A stretch of 27,824 bases of DNA, the filler included, from a bacterium (GTDB taxonomy: Bacteria; UBA9089; CG2-30-40-21; SBAY01), in assembly GCA_040757115.1 (NCBI GenBank). It is 2 parts of 2 records of this genome, joined end to end, with 100 filler letters (N's around TTAATTAATTAA, not from the genome) between each part and the next. Parts side by side here need not be neighbours in the genome. Positions count along the whole stretch, not along the records: positions 13,987 to 27,824 come from JBFLYA010000099.1; 1 more part is not named here. One strand, written 5' to 3'. Made by a program: the position numbers and the translations under genes. Of the stretch, positions 11,018 through 27,824 are shown one piece after another (the stretch's first letter is position 1; every line of letters starts with the position of its first letter). Below the pieces are notes generated by a model. That model was not told where the DNA came from. It made no database searches and saw nothing but the letters and a program-made list of their open reading frames with translations.

Positions 11018-11231
11018 GCTGTGTCGCTTTCGTTAAATCAAGTAAAGACCTCAATGCCTTATTTACGGCATCTGAATCTGCAAATGATTTAGCAATATCC
11101 GGCTCAAGCATTACGATATTAGCTCCTTCTGATAGAAGACGTTTGTAATACTTGCCACGAATAGCTTTTGAATAATCAAAATCATATTCGGGGCGTAACT
11201 CATCACTACTTTTTTTTTCTTTAATTTTCAT
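10974..11231 (-). CDS. BrnA-like antitoxin
   Basis: DELRPEYDFDYSKAIRGKYY...LEPDIAKSF.DSDAVNKALRSL; likely start 11231; reads into the attC. Confidence 0.8.
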   Translation of the reverse strand: MKIKEKKSSDELRPEYDFDYSKAIRGKYYKRLLSEGANIVMLEPDIAKSFADSDAVNKALRSLLDLTKATQLLTKHSSGRVVAHR

Positions 11232-11490: not shown

Positions 11491-11572
11491 GTAATTAATT
11501 TATCCTATTTTTTACGCCATTTTTCCAAAACTCTTTTTTCGTATAAAACATTCCCTACTTATATCACTTTAT

Positions 11573-11601
11573 ATTATACAGCATAAAAATTTATATGTCA
11601 A
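11573..11601 (-). promoter_or_regulatory. cassette-internal sigma70 promoter of BrnTA pair
   Basis: TTGACA-17-TATAAT perfect consensus on the minus strand. Confidence 0.75.
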
Positions 11602-11628
11602 TCAAAAAATCCTCTGCACTATTCATAC

Positions 11629-11691
11629 CACTAACGGCAAAACTTACCGGCATGCGGTGTTTTGTGCGTCCAGTGGAACGCAGTGTTAGGG
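11629..11691 (-). repeat. short attC (63 bp)
   Basis: Minus strand CCCTAAC-ACTGCG-TTCCACTGGAC...CCGGTAAG-TTTTGCC-GTTAGTG. Confidence 0.75.
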
Positions 11692-11719
11692 CATATTACA
11701 GTCAGTAAACCCCTTGGAA

Positions 11720-13516: not shown

Positions 13517-13557
13517 TTCAATAATCCTCCTTTTTGTGGTAAGTAGATGGTTGAAGC

Positions 13558-13689
13558 CCCTAACGATAAAGTTCAGGTGCGGCGGGGAGGATTACCACAA
13601 AAGTTTGATAGCAAGATAAAACTTTGAGAGACCACAAAACTCTGACCACGGCACAGTCCCCCGCCGTCAACTGCAACGCAGGGTTAGAC
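13558..13689 (-). repeat. attC site (132 bp family) with tail 13690-13778 and hairpin 13790-13863
   Basis: CCCTAAC...GTTAGAC; 13558-13868 nearly duplicates 1471-1782. Confidence 0.92.
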
Positions 13690-13886
13690 AAAAGCTTTGA
13701 TTCGCTGTCTTTTCCTTTTCCTCTGCCTCACCGAATTATTGTGCATTCCACATTCACGGTTGACCCTAAAATATCTCCTTTTTATTTTCTCACACAAAGC
13801 CACAAAGAACACAAAGGTTTATTGTTTTATTCAATTCCTTTGTGACTTTGTGTCTCTGTGTGATTATTTATTTCTCCATTGACTAT

Positions 13887-13986
13887 NNNNNNNNNNNNNN
13901 NNNNNNNNNNNNNNNNNNNNNNNNNNNNNNTTAATTAATTAANNNNNNNNNNNNNNNNNNNNNNNNNNNNNNNNNNNNNNNNNNNN
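13887..13986. other. artificial contig linker
   Basis: 44 N + TTAATTAATTAA (stops in all six frames) + 44 N = 100 bp. Confidence 0.97.
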
Positions 13987-14194
13987 TAGAAATTGATTGT
14001 GGAAAACAACAAATTTCCATAAATTTCTATTAGTTTCTATTAATTTCAATTTTTTTAATAATATCTCCCTATCTCCTTAATCTCCACATCTCCTTTTGTT
14101 ACACCACCTGAACACTTACTAATATTTAATATTTATTTGTTGTCTCCCCCAAATCCTATTTTGCAGAACCCTATGTTCCTATTTAACAATACCC

Positions 14195-14743
14195 TCAAGA
14201 GCCAAAAAATTCCTGGAATCTCTGGTAAGAAAGAGTTTCTTTCCCTATCAATCTTTCTATATTCTTTTTAATATAATCAGTATCAATAGTTGTTTGAATC
14301 TCTTTTATTCCGGCAATGTCTTTTCTATCATATTCTCTATCAGAGAGAAGTTTCAAAATGATTACATCTTCACAAGTAGCAAATCTTATCTCTTTATCAT
14401 ATAAAGAAAAACACCTTGCCCTTCTTATTACCTCTCTAAAATAAGGAAGAACTGGGAGAATGATATCTATCCTTACATCTTTATAATAAACTTCAGAGAG
14501 ATAGCCTTGGGTTAGTTCCTTCAAAAGATGGTCTTTATCAAAACTAAATCCACTTTTTTTCAAACTTTCTAAGAATTTAGGTATCTTTATCTTTTCTATC
14601 TCTATTAGTACATCTATATCGTATGTGGCACGAGGTAAGCTATATATCCCTGAAGCTAAAGCGCCTATAATAACATACCCAATAGATTCATCTTCCAAAA
14701 CAGAGATAAATTTTATCAATCCTTCTTCAAATACATTTTTCAT
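14195..14743 (-). CDS. nucleotidyltransferase-family protein
   Basis: YVIIGALAS..Y..PRATYDIDVLI and EDVIILKLLSDR..DRKDI motifs. Confidence 0.8.
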   Translation of the reverse strand: MKNVFEEGLIKFISVLEDESIGYVIIGALASGIYSLPRATYDIDVLIEIEKIKIPKFLESLKKSGFSFDKDHLLKELTQGYLSEVYYKDVRIDIILPVLPYFREVIRRARCFSLYDKEIRFATCEDVIILKLLSDREYDRKDIAGIKEIQTTIDTDYIKKNIERLIGKETLSYQRFQEFFGS

Positions 14744-14979
14744 TTCTTTGTCCGCTGGTTATTTATAAAGGCTTGGAAAGATTTTTTCTTTTCTTCCTTT
14801 TCTTTTTGGTAGAGCCTTAGTTTTTTATCTTTTTCTTTTATCTCCAGGAGACTATTAGATACCGAATAGAGTTCAATGATTGATTTAAGCTTCTGGCAAG
14901 GAGGTATTCTCTTTATCTCCTCTATTTCCTCTTTTCTCTTTTTGTGAAATATATCTTTCAAATCAGTGATTTCTTTCAT
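14740..14979 (-). CDS. small basic hypothetical protein, coupled to the nucleotidyltransferase
   Basis: 79 aa, 4-bp overlap. Confidence 0.6.
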   Translation of the reverse strand: MKEITDLKDIFHKKRKEEIEEIKRIPPCQKLKSIIELYSVSNSLLEIKEKDKKLRLYQKEKEEKKKSFQAFINNQRTKK

Positions 14980-15048
14980 CTTTTTATCTATTATTTTCCT
15001 AAAATTAGTAGTCAGTAGAGAGTAGTTAGTAGGTTGGTAGCTGCAGTT

Positions 15049-15960
15049 TTATCCTCCTGAAGAACAACCCCCAACTAACCCTATCGGTCTAATCAAATGC
15101 CTTTTCAACCACCTCTCTACCTCTTTCATCCCCAACGCCAGACCCAATATCTCGGTAAAATAAAAGATAGGCATATTTGTTCCATCCTGGCGCATTTCAA
15201 GGTTTGTTTGACACAACGGGCAGGCAGTAACAATACATTCTGCACCCGCCTGTTTTGCCATACTAACAAGTTTCCCCACCAATTCAACTACCACTGGAGA
15301 TTGCGATAAAGATAATCCTGCCCCACAACAGTCTGTTTTATATGACCAGGAAACCACATCACAGCCGCAAGCATCAAGGATTTTATCCATAGATTGTGGC
15401 TGTTCTACAGAATCAAATCCATCCTTTTGTGGTGGTCTGGTTATCAAACAGCCGTAATAAGGAGCAACCTTTAACCCGGACAAAGGTTTTTTTACCATTT
15501 TAGCAATTTGTCCTACTTCCTGATAGAGCACATCTAACAAATGCCTGACCTTAAGTTCACTGGAAAGTGGAACTCCCTCTTTTTGTTCCAACCTTTGAAT
15601 GTCCCCCGCTGGCGGGGGTAAGGGGGTGGAATATCGTGCGATACCAACTATTTGTTCCAACCTTTGTCTTTTCTCACCATCCTCTCTTAATTCCTTATCC
15701 GCCTGTTTGAGATTGCTATAACAGGCTGAACAAGGGACAGCTATATCCAGACCTGCATTTTGAGCCAGCAGGATATTGCGACTACTCAGGTCTGTAGATA
15801 AGTTATGATTCAAGCTATGCGCCGCACTGGCTCCACAACAATTCCAGTCAGGAATATCTATCAATTCTATATCCAATTTATGACACACTGCTCGTGTTGA
15901 CTCATCATATTCCTTGCCTGTAGAATGAAGTGAACAACCGGGATAATACGAAAATTTCAT
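15049..15960 (-). CDS. hdrB: heterodisulfide reductase subunit B family protein, with a 23-aa insertion
   Basis: YYPGCSL, DWNCCGA, PCSACY, YYGC, CCGA, ACPLCQ.NL: two CCG domains. Confidence 0.92.
   Translation of the reverse strand: MKFSYYPGCSLHSTGKEYDESTRAVCHKLDIELIDIPDWNCCGASAAHSLNHNLSTDLSSRNILLAQNAGLDIAVPCSACYSNLKQADKELREDGEKRQRLEQIVGIARYSTPLPPPAGDIQRLEQKEGVPLSSELKVRHLLDVLYQEVGQIAKMVKKPLSGLKVAPYYGCLITRPPQKDGFDSVEQPQSMDKILDACGCDVVSWSYKTDCCGAGLSLSQSPVVVELVGKLVSMAKQAGAECIVTACPLCQTNLEMRQDGTNMPIFYFTEILGLALGMKEVERWLKRHLIRPIGLVGGCSSGG
15582..15666. mobile_element. palindromic insertion in hdrB flanked by a 16-bp direct repeat
   Basis: TTTGTTCCAACCTTTG at 15582-15597 and 15651-15666 (69-bp offset, in frame) around CCCCCGC-TG-GCGGGGG-TAAGGGGGTGG. 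Confidence 0.8.
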
Positions 15961-15961
15961 T

Positions 15962-16480
15962 TTATTTACACCTCTTAAACATTTGCTTCACAGCCTTTCT
16001 GCCTTTAATAATCTCTGGGAATATACTTAACTTACCCTTAATAAACATATCCCGTCCCAGTTGCATATCCTGGAACAGGTTGGCACTTCTTAGCTTGTAG
16101 AGCCCAATCAATTCTACCTCGTGTGTCCTGCCCCATCTTTTAACACTATCAAGGAATAGTTGATGGAACATAGTCACATTTGGTTGTTTGCTGGGTATTT
16201 TTTCTTTTATGGCTATTTCTCGAAGGGTATCCATCACTCTGGGAATATCAATTTGCATCGGGCATCTGGTAAGACAGGTTTGACATCCAACACATAACCA
16301 AATGACAGAAGAGCAAAGCACTCTATTTTTGTCTCCCATCTGAATCATTCGGTTAATCTGATTAGGTTTGTAGTCCATCCAGGAGGCGATGGGACAACCG
16401 GATGAGCACTTCAAACATTGAAGACATTTATTTACATTTTGATTACTTTTTTCTCTTATTTGTAACTCTAAATTCATCAT
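15962..16480 (-). CDS. hdrC: heterodisulfide reductase subunit C family (2x4Fe-4S)
   Basis: CLQCLKCSSGCP and IWLCVGCQTCLTRCP; directly upstream of hdrB. Confidence 0.9.
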   Translation of the reverse strand: MMNLELQIREKSNQNVNKCLQCLKCSSGCPIASWMDYKPNQINRMIQMGDKNRVLCSSVIWLCVGCQTCLTRCPMQIDIPRVMDTLREIAIKEKIPSKQPNVTMFHQLFLDSVKRWGRTHEVELIGLYKLRSANLFQDMQLGRDMFIKGKLSIFPEIIKGRKAVKQMFKRCK

Positions 16481-16502
16481 CTAAATTCCTTTTTGTGAAA
16501 TT

Positions 16503-16531
16503 ATTATATCAGAATAAAGTAGTTATGTCAA
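16503..16531 (-). promoter_or_regulatory. sigma70 promoter of hdrCB
   Basis: TTGACA-17-TATAAT on the minus strand. Confidence 0.75.
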
Positions 16532-16609
16532 GAAGAAAACAAACGAATCATATTGACCCATTACGATTTCTACCATTTTTTCCCTTGATTATATAGGAAA
16601 GTATAACAT

Positions 16610-16748
16610 ACCACGAATTTCACGAATTGGACGAATAAAAATGTGTCTAATTGTCTGGTAGTCTATGTAACACAGACACCAGACTACCTGAATGGTTACA
16701 TTATTCTAATAATTAGTATTCATTCGTAAAATTCGTTTAATTCGTGGT
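16610..16748. repeat. inverted nonamer-array element with a nested partial element
   Basis: ACCACGAATTTCACGAATTGGACGAAT...ATTCGTAAAATTCGTTTAATTCGTGGT enclosing TGTCTGGTAGTCT/AGACACCAGACTAC and CTGAATGGTTAC. Confidence 0.75.
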
Positions 16749-16757
16749 AACTTTTCC

Positions 16758-16786
16758 TTGACTTTTTTCCTGATTTTTGTTATCAT
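16758..16786 (+). promoter_or_regulatory. sigma70 promoter of MFS gene
   Basis: TTGACT-17-TATCAT, 10 nt before ATG 16797. Confidence 0.6.
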
Positions 16787-16796
16787 TCGAGTTGTT

Positions 16797-17945
16797 ATGG
16801 ATAAAGAAGTAGCAAGAAAACCAATTAAAATATTTGCTTTAGCATCATTTTTAAATGATTTAGGTTCTGATATGATTTATCCCATCTGGCCATTATTTGT
16901 CACCTCTGTCTTAGGAGCCAATATGGCTGTTCTTGGTTTCATCGACGGACTGGGTGAGGCTATCGTTTCCATATCACAAGCCGCCTCTGGTTACATCTCT
17001 GACAAAATGAGAAAAAGGAAGGTTTTTATCTGGGTAGGTTATTTGTGTGGTTCGGTATCAAGGGTTGGTTACGCTCTATCAACTACCTGGCAGTATTTAA
17101 TTCCATTCAGGATTTTAGATAGAGCAGGCAAAATAAGAGCCGCTCCAAGAGATGCTATTGTGGCTGATATTTCTACAAACGAAAATAGAGGCAGAAACTT
17201 TGGATTAATCAGAGCGATGGATAATTTGGGGGCGGTATGTGGGATTATAGTTTGTATCTTATTTGTTGAATTATTAGGATATAGAAATTTATTTTTAATA
17301 GCCGCTATACCATCAACTATTAGTAGTTTGTTAATTTTTGCTTTAATAAAAGAAAAAACAGCAACTGGTAATATCTACAAGGGATTTTCTCTGAAAAACT
17401 TAGATAAAAACTTTAAATTATTTCTCCTCTTAAGCTCTTTTTTTGCTCTGGGTTCTTTTAGTTACTCTTTTTTACTGGTATATGCAAAGGAATTGGGTTT
17501 TCAGGTAACATTTATCCCGGTTCTGTATTTGGTATTTACTCTGACTGCTTCTATTTCTTCTTTACCTTTTGGGAAACTTTCTGATAAGATAGGTAGAAAA
17601 CAAGTCCTGCTGTTATCTTATATTTGTTGGGGATTAGTTGCCTATAGTTTTATCTTTATTCAAATCTATTGGGTAATCATTTTGACATTCGTTTTATACG
17701 GTTTGCACAAAGGGATGTTAGAACCTGTTCAAAGAACATTAGTCAGTGAACTAACCCCGGTAGAATACAGAGCAAGCGGTTTGGGTCTATTTCAGATGGT
17801 TGTAGGTTTGTGTGCCTTGCCATCTTCTCTGATTGCAGGGATACTCTGGGACAGAATTAATATATTTATGCCATTTTATTTTTCCTTGAGCCTAACCATT
17901 TTGTCAATTATTATGCTAATGTTTGTGAGGGAGAAACGGTTATGA
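16797..17945 (+). CDS. MFS transporter
   Basis: About 12 TMs, GYISDKMRKRK and GKLSDKIGRK motif A copies; start moved to ATG 16797. Confidence 0.92.
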   Translation: MDKEVARKPIKIFALASFLNDLGSDMIYPIWPLFVTSVLGANMAVLGFIDGLGEAIVSISQAASGYISDKMRKRKVFIWVGYLCGSVSRVGYALSTTWQYLIPFRILDRAGKIRAAPRDAIVADISTNENRGRNFGLIRAMDNLGAVCGIIVCILFVELLGYRNLFLIAAIPSTISSLLIFALIKEKTATGNIYKGFSLKNLDKNFKLFLLLSSFFALGSFSYSFLLVYAKELGFQVTFIPVLYLVFTLTASISSLPFGKLSDKIGRKQVLLLSYICWGLVAYSFIFIQIYWVIILTFVLYGLHKGMLEPVQRTLVSELTPVEYRASGLGLFQMVVGLCALPSSLIAGILWDRINIFMPFYFSLSLTILSIIMLMFVREKRL

Positions 17946-18059
17946 CCTTACGGTTCGCAAAGGACAAAGTATCGTAACTGTTCACCGCAGAGACACAGAG
18001 ACGCAGAGAAAAAATTAAAATTTATTGGTAATTATTCAGCCACAGATGGACACGGATGA

Positions 18060-18366
18060 GTAAGCGTTCAGGTCATTGCAAAATATCTAATAATAATGTA
18101 AAATGGGCAATGTAAAATGAAAAATGTAAAATGAGAGGATGGATGAAATAAAAGGTGATGATATGACTGAAAGCTTGCTTGAAGGTAATAGATCGGGCAC
18201 AATTGCTTCCACAGGCTCGGTTACAAAATATACTTGATCAGGCTGAAGAATTATGCAAGATGATTGGGAAATCAATTCTTACTGCCAGAACACAGAATTG
18301 ACTTTTAAATTTTTAATTGCTCATTTTACATTTTACAGTTATTTTTTTAAGTAGCTGAACGCTTAC
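18060..18366. mobile_element. inner MITE-like element with perfect 12-bp inverted ends GTAAGCGTTCAG/CTGAACGCTTAC
   Basis: Perfect TIR; inverted AATGTAA/TTACATT heptamer arrays inside, around a gene remnant. Confidence 0.78.
18139..18301 (+). pseudogene. internally deleted four-helix-bundle (23S IVP/Avd-like) gene
   Basis: MDEIKGDDMTESLLE fused out of frame to LKVIDRAQLLPQARLQNILDQAEELCKMIGKSILTARTQN*, resembling the N- and C-termini of that family; AGAGG upstream. Confidence 0.65.
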
Positions 18367-18612
18367 ACGGATAAAACACTGAAAATTCATAATCTGTGTC
18401 CGTTTTCCGTGTCCGTAATCAGGCTGAAGGTTTTTCCTCCTGTTGTCCTCTGTCCTCTGTCCTCTGCCCTCTGCCTTCTGCCCTCTGCCCTCTGCCCTCT
18501 GCCTTCTGCCCTCTGTACTTATCCGTGCTAATCCGTGTTAATCAGTGGCTGAATAGATACTATTCCAGAGGTTCATGAATTTTCCGAATGCCTCCAAACG
18601 AATTTAATTCAC

Positions 18613-18641
18613 TTGACAAAATGAGGAGTAAATGGTATTAT
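18613..18641 (+). promoter_or_regulatory. sigma70 promoter
   Basis: TTGACA-17-TATTAT upstream of ATG 18665. Confidence 0.65.
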
Positions 18642-18664
18642 TGAGTTCAACATTTTAATAGAAA

Positions 18665-21634
18665 ATGGAGAAGAAAATGACAGGTCAATTTTTAGACGAG
18701 AAAAAAAAGATATTAACAAATGGCTCACGAAAACTTGGTTTTCTTGAAGTTAATGAGAATGAAACAAAGGCATATTTTACCTTTTTCCCGCCAGAAAATG
18801 GTAAAGTAGTTAACCCTGAAGAAATAATTTCATCTTTACACGAGGAAGGTATTTTAGATATAGATATGGATATTATTCGGCGGACAATTATAGAAAACCA
18901 ATTTAATCAGAGAATACTTATTGCTACAGGAATACCACCAACTAATGGTGAAAGTGCATACTTTTTATATCAATTTGGCGCCGAAGGAGAATGTCCAACG
19001 ATAGAAGTCATTCCAGGTCAAATTTTAGCCGTAAAAGTTCCATGCGGTTATGGAATTCCAGGAACAACCGTTACTGGAGAAAAGGTTCCTCCTTTAATGG
19101 GAGAAGATATTGAGATTATTCCAGGTAATAATACGGCTATTTCTCCAGATGGACTAAAAGTTTATGCGACTGGATTTGGAAATGTGATGTGGACAGGAAA
19201 TAAAGTTGAGGTGGAAAGGATATTTGAAATCCCCAATGATGCAAAGGAAAATATTGATTTTCAAGGCAGTGTCTTAATCGGTGGTAATGTTCATAATGGG
19301 GTTGAAATAAAGGCAACTGGTAATGTGAATGTTAAAGGAGAGGTTCTACCACAAGCCCAAATAAAAGCAGGTAAAGATATTATTGCTAGAGCAATCAAAG
19401 GCGCTATTTTAGAGGCTAAAGGAAATGTAGTCAGTGAAGAGATTATTGATGGGCAAATCACGGCTCAAAATGTCCTCCTGAAAGATAAAGGAATTCTTTG
19501 TGGTGGAAAGATTAAGGCTAATTCTTTGATTGAAGCAAAAATAATTGGTAATGAAAATAATCTCCCAACAACACTTATAGTTGATGAAGATGGTAAGGTT
19601 TCGGCATCTTCTTTTATCTACCCGGAAACTAAAATTACTATTGGGAAAATAACCATAAAGATAAAAAAAGAAGTCAAAGAGGTCTTATATTACAAACTTA
19701 GAGATTCTGTTGTTCAATCCAGATATAAACCTGCTGAAATAAGAAAAGAACAAGGAACGCAAATATTGGAATCTCAGATATATTCATCCACAATACCTCC
19801 ATCAGTAGTTATTAAAGCCACCTCTTTATCAGAGGCAAAAGAAATAGGTGCTGAACTCCTGAATTTACCTCCTTCAGAGGTAGATTGTCAGATAGGAATA
19901 GCGGACGAGGATATTTCTTTAATGCGGGTTTTTCAACTGGGTATTAAAGGACCGTGGGAAGAAGGATGGAAAAAAAGGGTAAAAGAAGAAATTTCGCGTG
20001 CCAGAATAGATAACATTGATGGAATGTTTGAATTCTTCAACACGGATAGCGGTTTATATTTATCTATACTTTCCCCTAAAGGAAGTGGAAAAGAAGTTAC
20101 TTTAGAAGAAATTTTGATGTATGCAGCAACCAAAGGCTTTGTGAATGTTAATAAAGATATACTTAAAAAAGCAGTTGAAACTCCATCTTCTAAACCAATA
20201 ATGGTTGGACCAAGACAAAGGCTATTAGAATTAGACGGCAAGATTGAACTAGAGATTACCCCGGATTACTCAAAGGCATATATTATAGTTACTCCACCTC
20301 AGGTAGGTGGACTTCCAGCCACTTTTGAGGAGGCAATGTGTGCCTTACGAGAAAATGGTGTAGTTGCGGGAATTAAAGAGAAGGTACTTGCAGAAGCAGT
20401 ATTTGCTCAGAAAAATAGGCCTGAATTGGTTGCTGAGGCTATTTTACCTGTCCCGGGCGAACCAGCAACATTAGAATATAAATTCCGCGCAGATAGGTCT
20501 AAAGTAATATTAGAAGAAGATGAGTATGGTCGGGTGGATTTTAAAAAATTAAATCTTATTGAGAATGTTCGTGCTGGACAGGTTTTAGTGGTAAAAAAAG
20601 CCCCAGGAAAAGGCACGCCAGGTAGACTAATCAATGGCCTCGAAATTCCTGCCCTACCAGGACAGGATATAAAAATGCCTGCTGGAAGAAATACAGAGGT
20701 ATCGATAGGTGGCACAGAATTAATTGCAACGACAAATGGCCAGGTAATTTTAGCCGCAGATAATAAAGTGAATGTTGAAGATACCATTCAAATTAAAGGA
20801 GATATTAATTTACAAACTGGAAATATATATTTCCTCGGCACGGTTATCATTGATGGGAGTGTCGAGGATGATTTTGAAGTCGAGGCAACGGGTGATGTCC
20901 AGATTAAAAATACTGTTGGTAAATGCTATATTTCTGCTGGCGGAAGTATTGCTATTGGAGAAGGCGTAAAAGGTAAAGGTGCGGCACGATTATTTGCCGG
21001 CGGACATATCTTTGCTAAATATATTGAAAATGCTAAAGTAGAGGCAAAAGGCACTATTCAGGTAACTCAAGAAATTATGCACAGTCAGGCTGACGCCGGT
21101 AAATCTGTCCTTTTAGAAGGTAAACAACGAGGTTCTATTATTGGAGGTAGGGTTAGAGCAGGTGATGAAATCCACGCTCGAGAAATTGGTGCCCCAGCTG
21201 GAACTTACACAAAAATAGAAGTCGGTGGCACACCACGAGTCCGAGAACAATTAGATAACTTAAATAGAGTTTATCAAAGAGATGTTAATAGATTAGAAAC
21301 AATAAAAAGAGATATTGCCGTTCTAAAAGATAAGAAAAAACAAGAAAAAGAAAAGTTTCCTATTGAAAAAGAGGCTAAACTACAAAAACTTATTCGCGAA
21401 CATAATAAATTAACCGTAAAATTACAACGATATACTGACCAAAAGGAATTTTTAGAGGTGAGAATACAAGAGTCACTTGGTGGCAAAATTTATGTATCAC
21501 ATACCTTATTTCAAGGCGTAACTATAACCATCCGAAATGCTACTCTGGAAATAAAAGATAATTACAGCTCCGTTAGCCTTGGTCCTAAAGGAGAAGATGA
21601 AGTCGGCATCTATCCGTATGGAATAACGAAATGA
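18665..21634 (+). CDS. FapA/DUF342 family protein with duplicated modules
   Basis: Two DUF342-like units (GNIDFxGSVxIxGxV, GRVDFKKLNLIENVRAGQVL, IIGG.V.AG..I.A..IG), the second with a coiled coil. Confidence 0.85.
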   Translation: MEKKMTGQFLDEKKKILTNGSRKLGFLEVNENETKAYFTFFPPENGKVVNPEEIISSLHEEGILDIDMDIIRRTIIENQFNQRILIATGIPPTNGESAYFLYQFGAEGECPTIEVIPGQILAVKVPCGYGIPGTTVTGEKVPPLMGEDIEIIPGNNTAISPDGLKVYATGFGNVMWTGNKVEVERIFEIPNDAKENIDFQGSVLIGGNVHNGVEIKATGNVNVKGEVLPQAQIKAGKDIIARAIKGAILEAKGNVVSEEIIDGQITAQNVLLKDKGILCGGKIKANSLIEAKIIGNENNLPTTLIVDEDGKVSASSFIYPETKITIGKITIKIKKEVKEVLYYKLRDSVVQSRYKPAEIRKEQGTQILESQIYSSTIPPSVVIKATSLSEAKEIGAELLNLPPSEVDCQIGIADEDISLMRVFQLGIKGPWEEGWKKRVKEEISRARIDNIDGMFEFFNTDSGLYLSILSPKGSGKEVTLEEILMYAATKGFVNVNKDILKKAVETPSSKPIMVGPRQRLLELDGKIELEITPDYSKAYIIVTPPQVGGLPATFEEAMCALRENGVVAGIKEKVLAEAVFAQKNRPELVAEAILPVPGEPATLEYKFRADRSKVILEEDEYGRVDFKKLNLIENVRAGQVLVVKKAPGKGTPGRLINGLEIPALPGQDIKMPAGRNTEVSIGGTELIATTNGQVILAADNKVNVEDTIQIKGDINLQTGNIYFLGTVIIDGSVEDDFEVEATGDVQIKNTVGKCYISAGGSIAIGEGVKGKGAARLFAGGHIFAKYIENAKVEAKGTIQVTQEIMHSQADAGKSVLLEGKQRGSIIGGRVRAGDEIHAREIGAPAGTYTKIEVGGTPRVREQLDNLNRVYQRDVNRLETIKRDIAVLKDKKKQEKEKFPIEKEAKLQKLIREHNKLTVKLQRYTDQKEFLEVRIQESLGGKIYVSHTLFQGVTITIRNATLEIKDNYSSVSLGPKGEDEVGIYPYGITK

Positions 21635-22605
21635 AAAAAATAACACCCCTGTTAATTTTACTATTCTTTTCCTGGATAAGCGCTGTTTTATTCCTCTATT
21701 TCAAAGTCCATTATTCTTATCTGGCTTTATTTTTAAGCAAAAATAATATCTTTGATGAATTATACCTTTTATTTATATTGGCTTTATTAAGTTATGCCTC
21801 AGGTCGAAGGATATTTTTACTGACTAATGTCAAATTTTCCTCTTTCCTCGAAGAATTTATCTTTGCCAATGGTGTTGGATGGATAATATTAGCTTGTGGG
21901 CTAATGATTGGGAAAATAGCCCTGCTCATACTCCTTTTATTCTTTATTATAGAATTATTCCCAATTATCAGAATTATATTAAATAAGATAAAATGTCTTT
22001 TTGGTATCAAACCTGTCGGCTTAAATATAATTTTATGGTTTTTATTGGGTATAACTATATTTTTTACCTTCCTAATGGCATTAACACCTTCTTTTATCTC
22101 TTTTAATTTCATATTTCCAATAGGATTTAAGTTGATTTATTTCTATTTTGGAATTTTAATCATTATGACTATCTTTGCTTTAACCAGAAGGCATTTTAAT
22201 CAAAATTGTGGACTCCTCGCAAGTTGCATATTTTATATCAATAGTTTATGGATTTTTCCATTTGAAAGAACAACAATCGAGTTTGTAGTAATTTTTTATG
22301 GATTATTAGCCGTTTATTTATTACTGAAATGGAATCAAACTTTGAAGGATGGGTATTTTAAATTCATCTTTCGATGTCTGATTCTATTAGTTCTTTTCCC
22401 TATCTTTATCTCGCATCTTATCTATAGATATTCTGGAGAATATACCTTATTAAGGCGGGTTATTCTTTGTGTAATTACGGGTGTTTTTATACTCATTTTG
22501 GGCTATGAATCCTACATTATATTCAATTATGCTCCATTGAAATTTATCTTTGGATTACAAACGGCTTCAGAATATCTTGCTCGAATTGTTTCTGTATTAA
22601 AATAA
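21631..22605 (+). CDS. polytopic membrane protein (possibly a reduced GT-C/ArnT-like protein)
   Basis: 324 aa, highly hydrophobic, 4-bp overlap with upstream gene; the IFALTRRHF...GLLASCIF segment is reminiscent of GT-C proteins. Confidence 0.55.
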   Translation: MKKITPLLILLFFSWISAVLFLYFKVHYSYLALFLSKNNIFDELYLLFILALLSYASGRRIFLLTNVKFSSFLEEFIFANGVGWIILACGLMIGKIALLILLLFFIIELFPIIRIILNKIKCLFGIKPVGLNIILWFLLGITIFFTFLMALTPSFISFNFIFPIGFKLIYFYFGILIIMTIFALTRRHFNQNCGLLASCIFYINSLWIFPFERTTIEFVVIFYGLLAVYLLLKWNQTLKDGYFKFIFRCLILLVLFPIFISHLIYRYSGEYTLLRRVILCVITGVFILILGYESYIIFNYAPLKFIFGLQTASEYLARIVSVLK

Positions 22606-22659
22606 CACAAAACTCATTAAAATACAAGGGGCTTTATCGTTTTTTTTCTATCCTATGTC

Positions 22660-22840
22660 TATAGCAGTTATTATTCAAAACTTTACTTAGAATTAAATTT
22701 TCTACCAATATATCGTTCCTACGGAACTGATTGATTTGTCTATCTATTCCTACCGATATTATGTTCCTAACGGAACGATTATTCTCCTGCCTTATTTATG
22801 GGTATTATCCTATGTAAACTTCCAGTTAATAACCGCTATA
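22660..22840. mobile_element. MITE-like element with TATAGCRGTTATTA inverted ends carrying two REP-like repeats
   Basis: TATAGCAGTTATTA...TAATAACCGCTATA; internal CTACCAATATATCGTTCCTACGGAAC and CTACCGATATTATGTTCCTAACGGAAC. Confidence 0.75.
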
Positions 22841-22863
22841 TTTTTCGGTTTAACATTTTTTTC

Positions 22864-22892
22864 TTGCCTTTTTTTTAAAAATATGGTATAAT
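22864..22892 (+). promoter_or_regulatory. sigma70 promoter
   Basis: TTGCCT-17-TATAAT with TG extension. Confidence 0.6.
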
Positions 22893-22905
22893 AACAGTCG
22901 ATTAA

Positions 22906-23799
22906 ATGATGAAAAGGCTTATCTTCATAAGTATATTTCTTTTTATCAGTTCTTTTGTCTGGGCAAAAAATAATACCGGTGCGACATTCTTGAAAATTAA
23001 TGGTGGAGCAAGACCAGCGGGAATGGGTGATGTCTTTTGTGCCGTTGCCAATGATGTTAATGCGTTATATTTTAACCCCGCAGGATTAGCTCAGATTAAA
23101 GGAGAAGAGTGTTTATTAACCTATACTCAATGGTTTGAAGATGTTAAATATAACTACCTTGCCTTTGCCCAAAATATTAGTCGTGCTCGAACCATAGGTG
23201 GCAATGTTACCTACCTCCGCATAAATGACCTCATTGGTAGAGATGATGACGGAGACCTGACAGGTAATTTTGATGCTTATGACTTAGCCTTAGGATTAGC
23301 TTATGCTGAAAGGTTATCTAAACATTCATTAGTTGGGTTACATTTAAAATCTATCTATCAATTAAATGAAAATACCTCTGGAAGTAGCATAGCGATTGAC
23401 TTCGGCTGGTTATACAAAAACATCATTAAAGATTTAGATCTAGGACTATGCATCCAAAATATTGGAACAAAGATAAAATTTATTAAAAAAAAAGAAGAAT
23501 TACCTTTAAATATCAAAGTAGGTCTTGCTTACAAATTACCTCGTATCTTGATTATAGCCGTAGATGGAAATATACCTGAAGATGGTAAAGTATCTGTTAA
23601 TGCAGGAACAGAAATTACTCTCCTGCGTTTTCTATCTCTGCGCACTGGTTATAAATCCCAGACTGATTTAGATTCAAAAAGTCATTGGAGTTATGGAGTA
23701 GGATTAAAAATAAGTGATTATCAGATTAATTATGCCTTTGTTCCGTATGGAATATTAGGGGATACACATAGAGTGTCTTTATTACTTAAGTTTCTTTAA
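22906..23799 (+). CDS. PorV/PorQ-family (UPF0164-like) outer membrane protein
   Basis: Signal peptide; FLKINGGARPAGMG..F.AVAND.NALYFNPAGLA; C-terminal YAFVPYG.LG.THRVSL. Confidence 0.88.
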   Translation: MMKRLIFISIFLFISSFVWAKNNTGATFLKINGGARPAGMGDVFCAVANDVNALYFNPAGLAQIKGEECLLTYTQWFEDVKYNYLAFAQNISRARTIGGNVTYLRINDLIGRDDDGDLTGNFDAYDLALGLAYAERLSKHSLVGLHLKSIYQLNENTSGSSIAIDFGWLYKNIIKDLDLGLCIQNIGTKIKFIKKKEELPLNIKVGLAYKLPRILIIAVDGNIPEDGKVSVNAGTEITLLRFLSLRTGYKSQTDLDSKSHWSYGVGLKISDYQINYAFVPYGILGDTHRVSLLLKFL

Positions 23800-24250
23800 C
23801 TATAGTTTCGTGATTTTTAGAAGATTGAAATCCCCTGAAAACACAAGGAAGAGGAATTATTGCAAAGTTATAGCTAAACCATGAGTTGCAAAAAATAGTG
23901 AGTGAATTACAAAATTCCAAATCACAAATTCCAAATTACAAATAAATTCCAATGACCAAAAATCAAAATTCCAAACAAAAGAAGGAGAAGTGCTTTTCAA
24001 TGAGGCAATAGAATTAAAGAAAAGTTATCTTCCCCTCTTGAGAGGGGTTAGAGGTGTGTCCTTCAATTATTGAAAAACCTAAATCTGACATTATTGAGCA
24101 AAATATTCAACTCCCTTTAACAAAATTGATAAAGCAATAGGTTTAGGAATTTGGTGTTTGGAATTTATTTGGAATTTGGTATTTGAAATTTGGAATTTAT
24201 ATTGCAAGGTTATGGTTAAACCATGATAAATAAATTCACGAAACTCCAGT
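23799..24250. mobile_element. composite element: 15-bp inverted ends, 27-bp direct repeats, AAATTCC/GGAATTT arrays and a four-helix-bundle remnant
   Basis: ACTATAGTTTCGTGA / TCACGAAACTCCAGT; DR 23858-23884 and 24200-24226 (3 mismatches); MTKNQNSKQ (ATG 23952) joined to KEGEVLFNEAIELKK..SIIEK. Confidence 0.7.
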
Positions 24251-24273
24251 TTAAGGAAAAAGGAGGATAATAA

Positions 24274-25665
24274 ATGTTAAAAAAGATAACTTTTATTAGT
24301 TTAATCATTGGGATAGTATCAGTCACATCCATAAGTCTGGCACAACAGCCGATAGAGCAAGGTGGAACAGAGACAACCGCAGTTTTGGGTCCAACATTAC
24401 AATTTGCTACTAAAACGGGTGGAGGGATTCAATCTGCCATTGTCTTAGGGGATATAGATGGTGATGGAAAATTAGAAGTGGTTACTGCGGCTTTTGATCA
24501 AAATGTCTATGTCTTAAATGAAGATGGAAGTTTATTGCCTGGCTGGCCTGTAAAACTCCCTCAAGCCTGGCTTTTACGGTCATCTCCGGCTATTGGAGAT
24601 ATTAATAACGATGGGAATTTAGAGATAGTCATTGGAACATTAGAGGCAGAGGTCTATGCCCTGGATAAAACTGGTAAATCCATTCCTGGTTGGCCAGTAA
24701 AGGTTATGGGAGGAATCTTCTCCTCGCCTGCATTAGCTGATATTGACCAGGACAAAAAATTAGAAGTGATAATAGGCTCAATAGGTGAAGGAGAGGCGAT
24801 TTTTGTCTATGCCTTTAATGAAGATGGAACTATAGTTCCAGGTTGGCCGGCAAAGATTAATGCTACCACCTGGTCTTGTGCCAGCATAGGGGATATAGAT
24901 AAAAATGGTAAATTAGAAATAGCCGTAACGACTTGTAGTGGAAATACTTACCTCTGGGATAGAAAAGGGAAATTACTTTCTGATTGGCCTGTCCTCGCCG
25001 GTTTCTGGAATATTTCTTCTTCGGTATTTGGAAATATAGATAAGGATAAAAAATTAGAGATAATTGTAAGTTCAAATGATAAAAAGGTATATGCTTTTAA
25101 GACAAACGGAAAATTAGTTTCTGGCTGGCCTGTTCAAACTGACGGGGCAATTATCTCTTCTCCTGCATTAGGAGATATTGATGAAGATGGAGAGTTGGAG
25201 ATAATAATTGGTTCTGATGATAAAAAGGTATATGCCTTTAATGGAGATGGGAGTTTAGTTCAAGGTTGGCCTGTAACTTGCGGCGGAGGTATCCAGGCAT
25301 CTCCTATCCTGGGAGATATTGATAAAGATAGGAAAATAGAGATAATCGTTGGTTGCACAGATAAAAAGGTATATGCCTTCAATGGAGATGGAACATCGGT
25401 TACAGGATTTCCATTACAGACAGAAGGTGCCATCTTCTCAACTCCAGCATTAGGGAATATCGATGATGATGATGGGCTTGAATTAATTGTGGCATCATTT
25501 GATTCAAAGGTATATTGTTGGGATTTTGGACCAGGAACATACAATATCCCTCCAGATAAAGGGAAAAACAAGAAAAAGACAAATACCTCAAAATTATTAC
25601 CCTGGCCAATGTTTCAACATGATGAATGTCATACAGGAACACATCCGGGCATATCCTCCAGATAA
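24274..25665 (+). CDS. secreted FG-GAP/VCBS repeat beta-propeller protein
   Basis: Signal peptide; about 8 repeats of SSPALGDIDxDGxLEIIxGS...VYAFNxDG...GWPV; C-terminal WPMFQHD..HTG; RBS AGGAGG. Confidence 0.9.
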   Translation: MLKKITFISLIIGIVSVTSISLAQQPIEQGGTETTAVLGPTLQFATKTGGGIQSAIVLGDIDGDGKLEVVTAAFDQNVYVLNEDGSLLPGWPVKLPQAWLLRSSPAIGDINNDGNLEIVIGTLEAEVYALDKTGKSIPGWPVKVMGGIFSSPALADIDQDKKLEVIIGSIGEGEAIFVYAFNEDGTIVPGWPAKINATTWSCASIGDIDKNGKLEIAVTTCSGNTYLWDRKGKLLSDWPVLAGFWNISSSVFGNIDKDKKLEIIVSSNDKKVYAFKTNGKLVSGWPVQTDGAIISSPALGDIDEDGELEIIIGSDDKKVYAFNGDGSLVQGWPVTCGGGIQASPILGDIDKDRKIEIIVGCTDKKVYAFNGDGTSVTGFPLQTEGAIFSTPALGNIDDDDGLELIVASFDSKVYCWDFGPGTYNIPPDKGKNKKKTNTSKLLPWPMFQHDECHTGTHPGISSR

Positions 25666-25673
25666 CTATTTTG

Positions 25674-26006
25674 GTAAGCGTTCAGCCACAGAGGCACAGA
25701 GTTCACAGAGAATTAAGGAAATTAGCCACAAATGGACACGCATTATAGCACTTATTAATCGAAATTTGACATAGATAGGGCTATGAAATTCCAAATCACA
25801 AATTCCAAATTCCAAATAAATTCAAATAACCAAAATTCAAAACATTACCCCCATAGTTTGGTATTTAGGACTTGAAATTTGGTGCTTATTTGAGATTTGG
25901 TGCTTGGGATTTGGGATTTTTTTTACTTATCCACTCTGAGTAAAGTTTTGACTAATAACTGCTATATTCCCTCTGTGTTCTCTGTGGCTATATCCTGAAC
26001 GGTTAC
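25674..26006. mobile_element. GTAAGCGTTCAG / CTGAACGGTTAC element with a nested TATAGC-ended element (25744-25966)
   Basis: Outer arms AGCCACAGAG..CACAGAG / CTCTGTGTTCTCTGTGGCT; inner TATAGCACTTATTA...TAATAACTGCTATA around AAATTCC-type inverted heptamer arrays. Confidence 0.78.
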
Positions 26007-26162
26007 AAAAAATTGTAGTTATTGTCAGACACTACCAAAATTACAAGACATTAAATTCCATTTCGTGTCCTTCGTGCTGAATAGTTACAAATTAAGTAAA
26101 AAATAAGGTGACCATTTAGACGATTACAAAATAAGAAGTAATTGAACAGTTGCAAAAAATAT

Positions 26163-26191
26163 TTGCAATTCTATTATAAATATTGTATAAT
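26163..26191 (+). promoter_or_regulatory. sigma70 promoter of ATPase gene
   Basis: TTGCAA-17-TATAAT with TG extension; the -35 lies in the palindrome TTGCAAA-N5-TTTGCAA (26150-26168). Confidence 0.6.
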
Positions 26192-26228
26192 ATACGCAAT
26201 AACAATGCACATATTATAAGAGGCATCT

Positions 26229-27593
26229 ATGAACAAGGAATACTTGAAGAATGTAATTATTGACCAACAAAAAGACATTCTTGAGAAAATTATGAATACA
26301 AATGTCATATCCCGTGAAGGTGCGGATAGATGTGAAAGGTATATAAGATACCCGAATGTCTTGTTAATAACCGGGTTACGAAGAGCGGGTAAGTCATTTT
26401 TTGCCAGCCAGCTTGTGAAAAACAAAAAATATGCATATTTAAACTTTGATGATGAAAGATTGATTGAATTTAATATCCAGGATTTTAATCTTATTCTGGA
26501 ATGTTTTTATGAACTCTATCCTGATTTTGAGTATCTGTTATTTGACGAAATACAAAATGTAGGTGGCTGGGAACTCTTTGTCAGTAGATTAAGGGATAAA
26601 TACAAAATAATTATCACTGGTTCAAACGCAAATCTATTAAGTAAAGAAATGGCAACCCATTTGACAGGAAGATATAGTGATTTTGTCCTCTTTCCGATGA
26701 GTTTTAGAGAATACCTTGATTACAATAATGTTGGGATAATATCATCATATTCTACCACTGAGAGAAGTAAGATTACTTCATTCTTTGACAGATATGTTAA
26801 GGAAAGTAGTATTTTTGATTATTATAAATTCGGTAAGGAGTTTTTAAGAAATTTATGGGCTTCTGTAATTGTCAAGGATATCACTATTCGTTACAAGATA
26901 AAGTATCCTTCAGTGTTGGAGAAACTATCTGTTATGCTGATAAATTATTTTACATCTAAAATTTCTATTAGTAATCTAACCAGAAATCTAAAAGTAAAAA
27001 GTCCAAATACAGTGGCTGAATATATAAGGTATCTGGAAAACAGTTTTCTCGTTTTTACCTTAAATAAATTTTCATATAAAATCAAGGAACAGTTATCAAC
27101 ATTTAAAAAGATATATATTATGGACAATGGTTTTATTAATGCTATGATTTTTAATTTCAGTGAAAACAGAGGAAAACTCCTGGAAAACATTGTGGCTATT
27201 GAATTGAAGCGTAGAAGCATAAGAGACGATTTTGAAATATTTTACTGGAATAATTACTATGTAGAATGTGATTTTATAATAAAAAAGGGAAAACAAGTTA
27301 TTTCTGCATATCAGGTATGTTCTGAACTAAATATCAATAATAAGGAAAGAGAGATTAGCGGATTAACTGCGGTAATGAAAGAATTTGATTTAAAAAACGG
27401 CACGATTCTTACTGAATCAATGGAAGATGAAATATCAATAAACAGTTCTAAAATACAGGTAACACCGGTATGGAAATGGCTTTTGTCTGAATTTTCGATG
27501 GTGTCTGAAAATAACTCTAATAGTGAAATCTATGCAGATTTGGTGTCCAAAAGGGATTTCCTCCAAAGAGCAAAATGCAAAACTCGTTTATAG
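26229..27593 (+). CDS. AAA+ ATP-binding protein (AAA_14 + DUF4143)
   Basis: GLRRAGKS Walker A, LFDEIQN Walker B, ITGSN, LTGR, KKIYIMDNG, LENIV, ECDFI, PVWKWLL. Confidence 0.92.
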   Translation: MNKEYLKNVIIDQQKDILEKIMNTNVISREGADRCERYIRYPNVLLITGLRRAGKSFFASQLVKNKKYAYLNFDDERLIEFNIQDFNLILECFYELYPDFEYLLFDEIQNVGGWELFVSRLRDKYKIIITGSNANLLSKEMATHLTGRYSDFVLFPMSFREYLDYNNVGIISSYSTTERSKITSFFDRYVKESSIFDYYKFGKEFLRNLWASVIVKDITIRYKIKYPSVLEKLSVMLINYFTSKISISNLTRNLKVKSPNTVAEYIRYLENSFLVFTLNKFSYKIKEQLSTFKKIYIMDNGFINAMIFNFSENRGKLLENIVAIELKRRSIRDDFEIFYWNNYYVECDFIIKKGKQVISAYQVCSELNINNKEREISGLTAVMKEFDLKNGTILTESMEDEISINSSKIQVTPVWKWLLSEFSMVSENNSNSEIYADLVSKRDFLQRAKCKTRL

Positions 27594-27704
27594 TTTAGGG
27601 TTTATAGTGTATAGTTTATAGTTTATAGTGTATAGTTTATAGTGTATAGTTTATAGTCCTTCAACTATCAACTATAAACTATCAACTATAAACTATCAAC
27701 TATC
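27587..27704. repeat. inverted heptamer tandem arrays (TATAGTK)n / (AACTATM)n
   Basis: About 10 TATAGTT/TATAGTG units facing about 6 AACTATA/AACTATC units across a short spacer. Confidence 0.85.
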
Positions 27705-27755
27705 TTTGCCAAAGTTCAGTAAAATTATCTCTTTCCTTTCAGCGTTAAAATACTT

Positions 27756-27824
27756 GTAACTGTTCAGATAGTAATTCACCGCAGAGACGCAGAGAAACAG
27801 AAAGGAAAATATCTTTTTTTTCGT
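27756..27824. repeat. left end of another GTAA-N3-TTCAG element
   Basis: GTAACTGTTCAG then TTCACCGCAGAGACGCAGAG, as at 17974-18008. Confidence 0.65.

What the first reader, a model, noticed from the sequence alone, without database searches (positions are those of the whole stretch)
14108..27767. Family of intergenic elements defined by GTAA-N3-TTCAG inverted ends with variable interiors
Seen: left ends at 17974, 18028, 18060, 25674, 27756 and right ends (CTGAA-N3-TTAC) at 14108, 16688, 18355, 18549, 25995, 26077. That is 11 copies in 14 kb (two with one mismatch), all intergenic. The interiors differ: CACAGAG, CACGGAT or CACGAA nonamer arms, heptamer arrays, ATCTCC repeats and gene remnants. 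No transposase or obvious target duplication is visible. Inference: a shared 12-bp bipartite recognition end used by an unidentified enzyme in trans to move or nest diverse short-repeat modules. I know no named element with this organisation.
Basis: partly seen in the sequence, partly recalled or inferred. Interest (0 to 1): 0.75.

Follow-up and report, generated by a model that had tools for sequence, protein, structure and literature searches.

The report
Miniature transposons with IS66-type ends
The repeated 12-base ends are real and mark small gene-less transposons that carry the end sequence of a known insertion-sequence family (IS66, ISBst12 group), so this is a familiar kind of element.

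Summary
GTAA-N3-TTCAG occurs 9 times exactly in the window against 0.27 expected.

The motif is not an orphan. It is the terminal inverted repeat of the ISBst12 group of the IS66 family. On Geobacillus plasmid pHTA426, a single gene for a PF03050/zf-IS66 transposase is bounded by GTATCTATTCAGCCC and GTAACTATTCAGCCC, with a perfect 8-bp target duplication. Both 12-mers occur letter for letter in the window (18549, 26077). ISDge4, seen transposing, has nearly the same ends and an 8-bp duplication (PMC12898284).

Relatives fetched from other genomes show 8-bp duplications in 17 of 29 complete copies, against 0.8% of shuffled flank pairs. The nested window copy 18060-18366 has a 7/8 duplication.

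The window copies are therefore non-autonomous MITE-like elements, most likely moved in trans by an IS66-type DDE transposase that was not seen here. Full-length relatives carry a GxxExxY nuclease gene or a four-helix-bundle gene as cargo. That cargo is the only part that may be new.

The parts
14108..14119 (-). Solo end GTAAGTGTTCAG facing left, followed inward by ATCTCC/GGAGAT units (14061-14095). No partner end seen; the stretch 13887-13986 to its left is masked (N).
16599..16759 (.). 161-bp hairpin with CACGAA nonamer arms. Its centre holds an end GTAACCATTCAG (16688-16699, minus) next to a small inner stem-loop. The outer terminal 12-mers are degenerate.
   Evidence: I8, 41-nt arms 78%; DNA fold z -6.9
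17974..18009 (+). Solo left end GTAACTGTTCAC (one mismatch) with CGCAGAG/CACAGAG arm; truncated or interrupted by the next element.
18028..18560 (.). Outer 533-bp composite element. Ends are GTAATTATTCAGCCACAGAT... and GTATCTATTCAGCCACTGAT..., with CACGGAT arms. It holds the inner element and the CCTCTGC array 18447-18515. No clear target duplication (3/8).
   Evidence: (I10, 33-nt arms 82%)
18060..18366 (.). Inner 307-bp element nested in the left arm of the outer one. Perfect 12-bp inverted ends GTAAGCGTTCAG. Flanked by the 8-bp duplication ACGGATGA (18052-18059) / ACGGATAA (18367-18374).
   Evidence: 7/8; DNA fold z -4.5, ends paired
18179..18298 (+). 40-codon remnant resembling the C-terminus of a four-helix-bundle protein (TIGR02436, the '23S rRNA intervening sequence protein' family). 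Weak match, below the family cut-off.
   Evidence: E 0.048, profile positions 73-107 of 109
25674..26006 (.). 333-bp element with ends GTAAGCGTTCAG / GTAACCGTTCAG, CACAGAG arms and an inner AAATTCC/GGAATTT hairpin. Starts 9 nt after the stop codon of the gene 24274-25665. No target duplication (2/8).
   Evidence: DNA fold z -7.6, end-to-end hairpin
26077..26088 (-). Solo end GTAACTATTCAG(CA) with CACGAAG arm. The 12-mer is identical to the right inverted repeat of the pHTA426 IS66-family element, and it is 1 mismatch in 14 from the published ISDge4 ends.
27756..27767 (+). Left end GTAACTGTTCAG with CGCAGAG arm. The element runs off the end of the window.

Best explanation
The sites are the terminal inverted repeats of a family of miniature, transposase-less DNA transposons (MITE-like elements; the larger relatives are cargo-carrying cassettes). 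They use the end sequence of the ISBst12 group of the IS66 family. A single-ORF IS66-type DDE transposase (zf-IS66 plus DDE_Tnp_IS66), encoded by an autonomous copy elsewhere in the genome, would bind the roughly 15-bp ends (GTAA-N3-TTCAG-C/CC). It would then insert the element into AT-rich intergenic DNA through cuts staggered by 8 bp, which gives an 8-bp target duplication.

Inside the 12-mer each element has its own subterminal arms, mostly variants of CACAGAK repeated every 7-10 nt. These arms make the whole element a long hairpin and are not present in the IS itself.

Shown: identity of the ends to a real IS66-family element; 8-bp duplications in relatives and in one window copy; nesting; absence of a transposase in the window.

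Inferred: that an IS66-type transposase is present in this genome and actually moves these copies; that most window copies are old (duplications decayed, solo ends); any role of the hairpins in transcription.
For: 1) Direct sequence comparison. On plasmid pHTA426 (L125) the gene annotated 'IS66-like element ... family transposase' (14182-15639) has PF03050 DDE_Tnp_IS66 (E 1.9e-64) and zf-IS66. It is bounded by GTATCTATTCAGCCC (14107) and GTAACTATTCAGCCC (ends at 15741), with a perfect 8-bp duplication GACGAGTT on both sides. The two 12-mers occur exactly in the window, at 18549-18560 and 26077-26088. With their next bases, w18560R matches 14 of 15 and w26088R matches the first 13.
2) Literature passages. 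ISDge4 (IS66 family, ISBst12 group, one 449-aa transposase) has ends GTGACTACTCAGCA / GTAACTGCTCAGCA and an 8-bp repeat, and was caught transposing (PMC12898284). IS66 inverted repeats start with GTAAGCG and make 8-bp repeats (PMC11946415; PMC12888890; PMC3281130 table).
4) Relatives. Of 29 non-redundant complete elements fetched with the end pattern, 17 have at least 7 of 8 identical flanking 8-mers (12 perfect), against 0.8% of 2000 shuffled flank pairs.
5) Window. The nested copy 18060-18366 has perfect 12-bp ends and a 7/8 duplication. There is no transposase among 27 ORFs.
6) Control. In pHTA426 the motif is not enriched (8 against 12.2 expected at up to 1 mismatch) and marks only the IS ends. 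The window's enrichment therefore reflects amplification of short copies.
Against: Only 1 of the 3 end pairs in the window shows a target duplication (2/8 and 3/8 for the others), and 5 ends are solo. No IS66-type transposase was seen in the window, nor among 127 long ORFs scanned in the relatives' loci (0 of 96, 0 of 31; 10 of the 136 ORFs of 420-640 aa were left out). Co-occurrence of MITE and IS in one genome is therefore not shown. In relatives, complete pairs whose arms are not of the CCACAGA type showed no duplication (0 of 3). The subterminal heptamer arms have no counterpart in the pHTA426 IS.
Confidence: 0.85

Rival explanations
1. REP/REPIN-like palindromes moved by a RAYT-type (IS200/IS605-like, HUH Y1) transposase: a conserved 5' tetranucleotide tag followed by a hairpin, often as inverted dimers nested in longer palindromes.
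For: Passages of PMC3733652 describe GTAG-tagged REPs in Anabaena and Nostoc whose dimers sit inside long palindromes. The window elements also start with a conserved GTAA and form nested hairpins.
Against: Each end is not itself a palindrome; the two ends pair with each other. Relatives have exact 8-bp target duplications (17 of 29), which HUH single-strand transposition does not make (established knowledge). The ends equal those of a DDE IS. No Y1 transposase was seen.
Confidence: 0.03
2. The cargo protein is the mobility enzyme. The about 458-bp full-length relatives would be autonomous mini-transposons or homing elements driven by their own GxxExxY PD-(D/E)XK nuclease, and the window copies would be their deletion derivatives.
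For: Full-length relatives hold exactly one ORF, TIGR04256 GxxExxY (E 1e-39 and 2e-37), embedded between the ends. They have 8/8 or 7/8 duplications (L042, L044, L070, L001). Short copies look like internal deletions of them.
Against: Cassettes with a different cargo (four-helix bundle) or no ORF use the same kind of ends. The ends and the 8-bp duplication are those of an IS with a DDE transposase. A 125-aa nuclease has no known strand-transfer activity (established knowledge). No solved relative was found (0 PDB hits). No GxxExxY gene lies in the window.
Confidence: 0.05
3. Not mobile DNA at present: structural hairpins kept for RNA functions (terminators, mRNA stabilisers, RNase III processing sites as in 23S rRNA intervening sequences) and spread by duplication.
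For: Strong end-to-end hairpins (z -7.6, -4.5, -6.9). Four of the 5 window regions lie just 3' of genes. 23S IVS elements are ORFs of the same four-helix family bordered by an inverted-repeat stem cut by RNase III (PMC4990558 passages).
Against: This does not explain the exact 8-bp duplications or the match to IS ends. Rfam finds nothing in the window. The sequences outside the ends are unrelated. A secondary, exapted RNA role is not excluded and is compatible with the best explanation.
Confidence: 0.05
4. RNA-mediated very small mobile repeats of the SDR type described for Nostoc (Elhai et al. 2008, recalled; the paper could not be read).
For: Heptamer arrays, nesting within copies of themselves and intergenic location resemble what I recall of that paper's abstract. 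PMC5861425 mentions SDR5 only in passing.
Against: The window has no HIP1 octamer (0 GCGATCGC) and the relatives are mostly not cyanobacteria. The elements are 100-530 bp with defined inverted ends and 8-bp duplications.
Confidence: 0.02

Closest known systems
IS66 family, ISBst12 group (for example ISDge4 of Deinococcus geothermalis; the copy on Geobacillus kaustophilus plasmid pHTA426)
   Same: Terminal inverted repeat GTAAC/GTATC-TATTCAG-CC (12-mers identical, 14 of 15 with the next bases) and 8-bp target duplication.
   Different: The window elements are 300-530 bp or solo ends, have no transposase gene, and carry long subterminal heptamer-type arms that the IS lacks.
Bacterial MITEs (for example Nezha of Anabaena/Nostoc, which shares ends with ISNpu3; PMC3184786 passages)
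   Same: Short, intergenic, inverted ends shared with an IS, direct repeats at the flanks, stable hairpin, several copies.
   Different: The parent IS family differs. One short terminal motif is combined with many unrelated interiors, and copies nest in one another.
Mobile insertion cassettes (MIC231 of Bacillus cereus; recalled, not read)
   Same: IS-type ends around passenger genes without a transposase. This fits the GxxExxY and four-helix-bundle relatives.
   Different: MIC231 uses IS231 (IS4 family) ends. No intact cargo remains in the window, only a weak remnant.
ORF-bearing 23S rRNA intervening sequences (Coxiella, Leptospira; PMC4990558 passages)
   Same: A small four-helix-bundle ('S23p') ORF enclosed by a terminal inverted-repeat stem. 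A mobile origin was proposed long ago.
   Different: The window copies are not in rRNA (Rfam: no hit). I could not compare IVS end sequences with this motif.
REP/REPIN elements with RAYT transposases (PMC3733652)
   Same: A conserved terminal tag, hairpins, inverted dimers, nesting in palindromes.
   Different: The 8-bp target duplications and DDE-IS ends argue against the HUH mechanism.

Membership tests
MITE / non-autonomous derivative of IS66 family (ISBst12 group) | Terminal inverted repeats match those of the autonomous IS | tested here: met
   The pHTA426 IS ends GTATCTATTCAGCCC / GTAACTATTCAGCCC match window 18549-18560 and 26077-26088 (12 of 12), and relatives' ends in 14 of 15. ISDge4 ends as published are 1 mismatch in 14 from window 26075-26088.
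MITE / non-autonomous derivative of IS66 family (ISBst12 group) | 8-bp target-site duplication | tested here: met
   Relatives: 17 of 29 have at least 7/8 against 0.8% in the control. Window: 18060-18366 has 7/8, but 25674-26006 has 2/8 and 18028-18560 has 3/8. The feature is met for one window copy and decayed or absent in the others.
MITE / non-autonomous derivative of IS66 family (ISBst12 group) | Small size and no transposase gene | tested here: met
   307, 333 and 533 bp. No transposase domain in 27 window ORFs. Only short ORFs lie inside 17950-18660.
MITE / non-autonomous derivative of IS66 family (ISBst12 group) | Cognate autonomous IS with the same ends in the same genome | not testable with these tools
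0 of 127 long ORFs in relatives' loci are IS66-type.
MITE / non-autonomous derivative of IS66 family (ISBst12 group) | Evidence of movement (filled against empty sites) | tested here: inconclusive
   Nesting of 18060-18366 inside the arm of 18028-18560, with a duplication, implies one insertion event. No orthologous empty site could be fetched.
REP/REPIN (RAYT-mobilised) | Each unit is a short self-palindrome with a GTAG/CGTC tag, no target duplication, and an associated Y1 transposase | tested here: not met
   The ends pair with each other, not with themselves. 8-bp duplications are present. No Y1 transposase was found.
23S rRNA intervening sequence | Inserted in a 23S rRNA helix and excised from the rRNA by RNase III | tested here: not met
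   No rRNA or any Rfam family in the window. The sites lie between protein genes. RNase III processing is not testable here.

The most novel reading that the evidence does not exclude
Two very widespread small protein families of unknown function may travel between phyla as passengers of transposase-less cassettes that use ISBst12/IS66-type ends. The families are the GxxExxY PD-(D/E)XK nucleases (TIGR04256/PF13366) and the four-helix-bundle '23S rRNA intervening-sequence' proteins (TIGR02436). Their start and stop codons lie in the subterminal arms. Loci titled Desulfobacterales, Methylococcales, Cytophagia, Nitrospira, Armatimonadetes and perhaps ANME archaea carry such cassettes. ORF-bearing 23S rRNA intervening sequences would then be such cassettes that landed in rRNA, where the inverted-repeat stem happens to be an RNase III site. 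The window's elements would be decayed members of this system.
Probability: 0.3. Interest if true: 0.6.

Novelty: new member of a known kind. Interest (0 to 1): 0.3.

Why it matters
For this window the result is mainly a clarification: an apparently orphan repeat family is assigned to a known IS family, which explains its ends, its nesting and its intergenic spread.

Beyond the window, the same ends frame cassettes for GxxExxY nucleases and four-helix-bundle proteins in many phyla. If that holds up, it offers a concrete and testable vehicle for two enigmatic gene families, and a candidate origin for ORF-bearing rRNA intervening sequences. It also gives annotators a simple 12-15 nt signature plus an 8-bp duplication for masking these elements.

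Tried and rejected
- I first assumed a Nostocales origin because of the heptamer arrays and pursued SDR, Nezha and REP leads. The window has no HIP1 octamer and the relatives are mostly not cyanobacteria. Elhai 2008 is not held.
- Rfam found nothing in the window.
- A literal search for six 12-mers in papers gave only unrelated primer hits among the 20 listed of 25.
- A plasmid BLAST with element 25660-26020 gave one weak 41-nt hit.
- I looked for larger copies with a transposase between matching GTAA...TTAC ends 0.9-4.5 kb apart. There were 4 candidates and none was IS66. L040 is two separate ends around an Asn-tRNA synthetase gene, and L010:167-1478 is an unrelated DDE_Tnp_1 IS.
- A Pfam scan of 127 long ORFs of the loci found no IS66 transposase.
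- tblastn of a GxxExxY protein against plasmids gave 8 records. The best one (Fusobacteria plasmid, L123) has the gene between direct repeats without these ends.
- I tried to fetch known IS66 copies. NC_002142.1 and NC_009939.1 are not in the collections. pO157 positions 1-50000 has no IS66. pHTA426 succeeded.
- The supplement of PMC12898284 holds no ISDge4 sequence as text.
- tblastn found no GxxExxY or four-helix gene in the window.
- The PDB holds no relative of the GxxExxY protein.
- Not checked: metagenome contigs and viral contigs (closed), ISfinder (not available), and the source genome.


Full report
OBSERVATION

The pattern GTAANNNTTCAG occurs 9 times exactly in the 27.8-kb window against 0.27 expected, and none of 100 shuffles reached 9. 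Oriented with GTAA outward, the DNA outside the 12-mer is AT-rich and unrelated between copies. The DNA inside starts with short repeated units: CACAGAG, CGCAGAG, CACGGAT, CACGAAG or GGAGAT. All 9 exact sites lie in the 29% of the window not covered by the 27 ORFs I took as genes.

Three end pairs can be drawn:
- 18060-18366 (307 bp, perfect 12-bp ends), which is nested inside
- 18028-18560 (533 bp; 33-nt arms 82% complementary), and
- 25674-26006 (333 bp).

The other five ends are solo. As single strands, two of these three elements and the 16590-16765 hairpin fold into end-to-end hairpins far more stable than shuffles (z -7.6, -4.5 and -6.9). Rfam finds nothing in the window, and Pfam finds no transposase among 27 ORFs.

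RELATIVES ELSEWHERE

I spent the single genome-contig scan on the end plus its commonest extension, GTAANYRTTCAGCCACAGA, with 10-kb flanks.

Contrary to my first guess of a heterocystous cyanobacterium, the titles are mostly other groups (my hand count):
- 77 of 122 are Desulfobacterales-type (Thermodesulfobacteriota) MAGs.
- 12 are Methylobacter or Methylococcales.
- The rest include a Cytophagia MAG, Nitrospira, Armatimonadetes, Calditrichaceae, Anaerolineae, three archaeal MAGs and two cyanobacteria.
- A few are probably chance hits (for example Fusobacterium, Pelagibacteraceae).

MAG binning errors could inflate this spread. The window itself has no HIP1 octamer and 36.7% G+C, and it does not overlap any locus.

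Of 130 distinct ends, 102 have CTA as the N3. In the 26 bases that follow, 65 match one consensus (a 'left' end) and 11 a second consensus (a 'right' end).

The left consensus runs into an ORF. Full-length elements of about 456-458 bp (L044:10001-10458, L042:3120-3575, L070) hold exactly one gene, a GxxExxY protein (TIGR04256; E 1e-39 and 2e-37). Its start codon lies in the left arm. In L044 its stop codon lies inside the right 12-mer.

Many copies of 87-350 bp look like internal deletions of this element. Others carry a second element nested just inside the left arm. Some of these nested elements encode the N-terminus of a four-helix-bundle protein behind ends such as GTAACTACTCAGGC. The window's remnant 18179-18298 weakly matches the C-terminus of that family (TIGR02436, E 0.048, below the cut-off). 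No GxxExxY or four-helix gene is otherwise present in the window.

TARGET DUPLICATION

I took 29 non-redundant complete elements whose partner end aligned right up to the last base. In 17 of them, the 8 bases before GTAA and the 8 bases after TTAC agree in at least 7 positions (12 are perfect). Only 0.8% of 2000 shuffled flank pairs do so. The termini are therefore exactly the G of GTAA and the C of TTAC, and insertion duplicates 8 bp.

With a second, stricter pairing rule:
- the CCACAGA class gave 17 of 24;
- three pairs with other arms gave 0 of 3.

In the window:
- the nested copy 18060-18366 has ACGGATGA / ACGGATAA (7 of 8);
- the other two pairs have 2/8 and 3/8.

IDENTIFICATION

An 8-bp duplication and ends starting with GTAA recalled the IS66 family. 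Passages I read support this:
- IS66 inverted repeats of 20-30 bp start with GTAAGCG and make 8-bp direct repeats (PMC11946415).
- The ISPsk01 repeat begins GTAAGCGTCCGGC (PMC12888890).
- Two trapped IS66 members made 8-bp repeats (PMC3281130 table).

Closer still is ISDge4, an ISBst12-group member with a single 449-aa transposase. It has ends GTGACTACTCAGCA / GTAACTGCTCAGCA and an 8-bp repeat, and it was observed to transpose (PMC12898284). That pattern finds 13 window sites at up to 3 mismatches against 3.7 expected, including 26075-26088 at 1 mismatch.

I then looked at real sequence. PMC8024623 lists one ISBst12-group element on Geobacillus kaustophilus plasmid pHTA426. In that record (L125):
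- The gene annotated as an IS66-like transposase (14182-15639) has DDE_Tnp_IS66 (E 1.9e-64) and zf-IS66 domains.
- It is bounded by GTATCTATTCAGCCC at 14107 and GTAACTATTCAGCCC ending at 15741.
- GACGAGTT lies on both sides.

These two 12-mers are letter for letter the window's sites 18549-18560 and 26077-26088. With the next three bases they match the window's 18560 end and the relatives' consensus in 14 of 15 positions. In pHTA426 the motif is not enriched (8 against 12.2 expected at up to 1 mismatch) and marks only the IS ends.

MECHANISM

The best reading is that the window holds decayed and nested MITE-like elements with ISBst12/IS66-type ends, moved in trans by a DDE transposase of that group.

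Shown:
- the identity of the ends;
- the 8-bp duplication in relatives and in one window copy;
- the nesting;
- the lack of a transposase locally.

Inferred:
- that the source genome has the transposase (0 of 127 long ORFs in relatives' loci are IS66-type, which is unsurprising for MITEs but leaves co-occurrence untested);
- that the CACAGAK-type subterminal arms, which the IS lacks, serve as extra binding sites or merely as hairpin-forming sequence;
- that the hairpins affect neighbouring transcripts (4 of the 5 regions lie 3' of genes).

The RAYT/REPIN, self-mobilising nuclease, purely structural RNA and SDR readings explain the duplications and the IS match less well. Their evidence is set out under the rival explanations.

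NOVELTY

What I did not find in print is the link between these ends and the GxxExxY and four-helix-bundle cargo. The relevant searches were:
- GxxExxY, four helix bundle protein, 23S rRNA intervening sequence and PDDEXK_3 gave 45 papers. I read the GxxExxY and PDDEXK_3 passages.
- IS66, MITEs, ISBst12 and passenger genes.
- ISBst12 gave 6 papers.
- literal 12-mers.

The library lacks most subscription journals and ISfinder, so this absence is weak. A mobile origin of ORF-bearing 23S rRNA intervening sequences has long been suspected (PMC4990558 passages). I could not compare their ends with this motif.

LIMITS

- The source genome is unknown.
- The genome scan was truncated.
- Elhai et al. 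2008 and MIC231 are cited from recall only.

Noticed in passing
window 557-13705 (repeat copies near 606, 1508, 3133, 5058, 9704, 10601, 13594), minus strand: Seven copies of a repeat of about 147 nt, 93% identical. On the minus strand it begins near GTCTAAC, holds an imperfect internal palindrome (GACGGCGGGGG ... CCCCGCCGC) and ends at GTTAG, exactly where identity stops. The copies separate co-oriented small cassettes (ParE, PIN, DUF4160/DUF2442, MNT-HepT, YafQ, BrnT/CopG, GmrSD). This looks like an array of attC sites of a chromosomal integron, or a cluster of attC sites without an integrase. No intI gene lies in the window.
   Followed up: partly
window 13887-13986: Two runs of N around TTAATTAATTAA: a masked stretch just left of the solo end at 14108. 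It may hide that end's partner.
   Followed up: no
window 27586-27704, 23905-24200 and 25786-25919: Inverted arrays of tandem heptamers (GTTTATA/TCAACTA; AAATTCC/GGAATTT) forming long hairpins after genes, without the 12-mer ends. The heptamer hairpins therefore also exist independently of the IS66-type ends.
   Followed up: no
L044:10001-10458, L042:3120-3575, L070:1071-1528, L001:4827-5364: Complete cassettes of about 456-538 bp, each holding one GxxExxY (TIGR04256) gene between ISBst12-type ends, with 8/8 or 7/8 target duplications. They come from loci titled Desulfobacterales and Methylobacter.
   Followed up: partly
L028 (minus strand, about 7144-7460), L054, L078, L030, L073, L076, L077, L087, L096: A composite recurs many times within single MAGs: the first roughly 53 nt of the GxxExxY cassette joined at ...TTTAAATRCA to a four-helix-bundle cassette with ends GTAAnTACTCAGGCACAGAGG. 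The shared junction suggests that the composite itself amplifies. The complete composites checked (L028, L032) show no 8-bp duplication around the inner element.
   Followed up: partly
L028, L041, L073, L076, L079, L121 (arm of the cassette); L078, L085, L097: Small G+C-rich palindromes are inserted at a fixed place in the left arm of some cassettes. One type begins CACCCCAGTACGATC...GGGGCAGG and another GACCCGCCCGCC...GGGCAGGTG. They form a further layer of nested short elements of unknown kind.
   Followed up: no
L123:10400-10920 (plasmid CP102406.1): A GxxExxY gene lies between two direct copies of a roughly 50-nt repeat containing ATCAGTG/ATCCGTG units, with no GTAAC ends. The same gene family therefore also sits in a differently organised repeat context.
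   Followed up: no
window 26229-27593 and L063:4714-6033: An AAA_14/DUF4143 ATPase gene lies next to these elements both in the window and in a Desulfonema MAG locus. This is possibly coincidence.
   Followed up: no
L040:10001-12219: Two cassette ends in inverted orientation lie 2.2 kb apart and enclose an Asn-tRNA synthetase gene. One end belongs to a GxxExxY cassette in reverse orientation. It is not an autonomous element, but such pairs could in principle mobilise host genes.
   Followed up: partly
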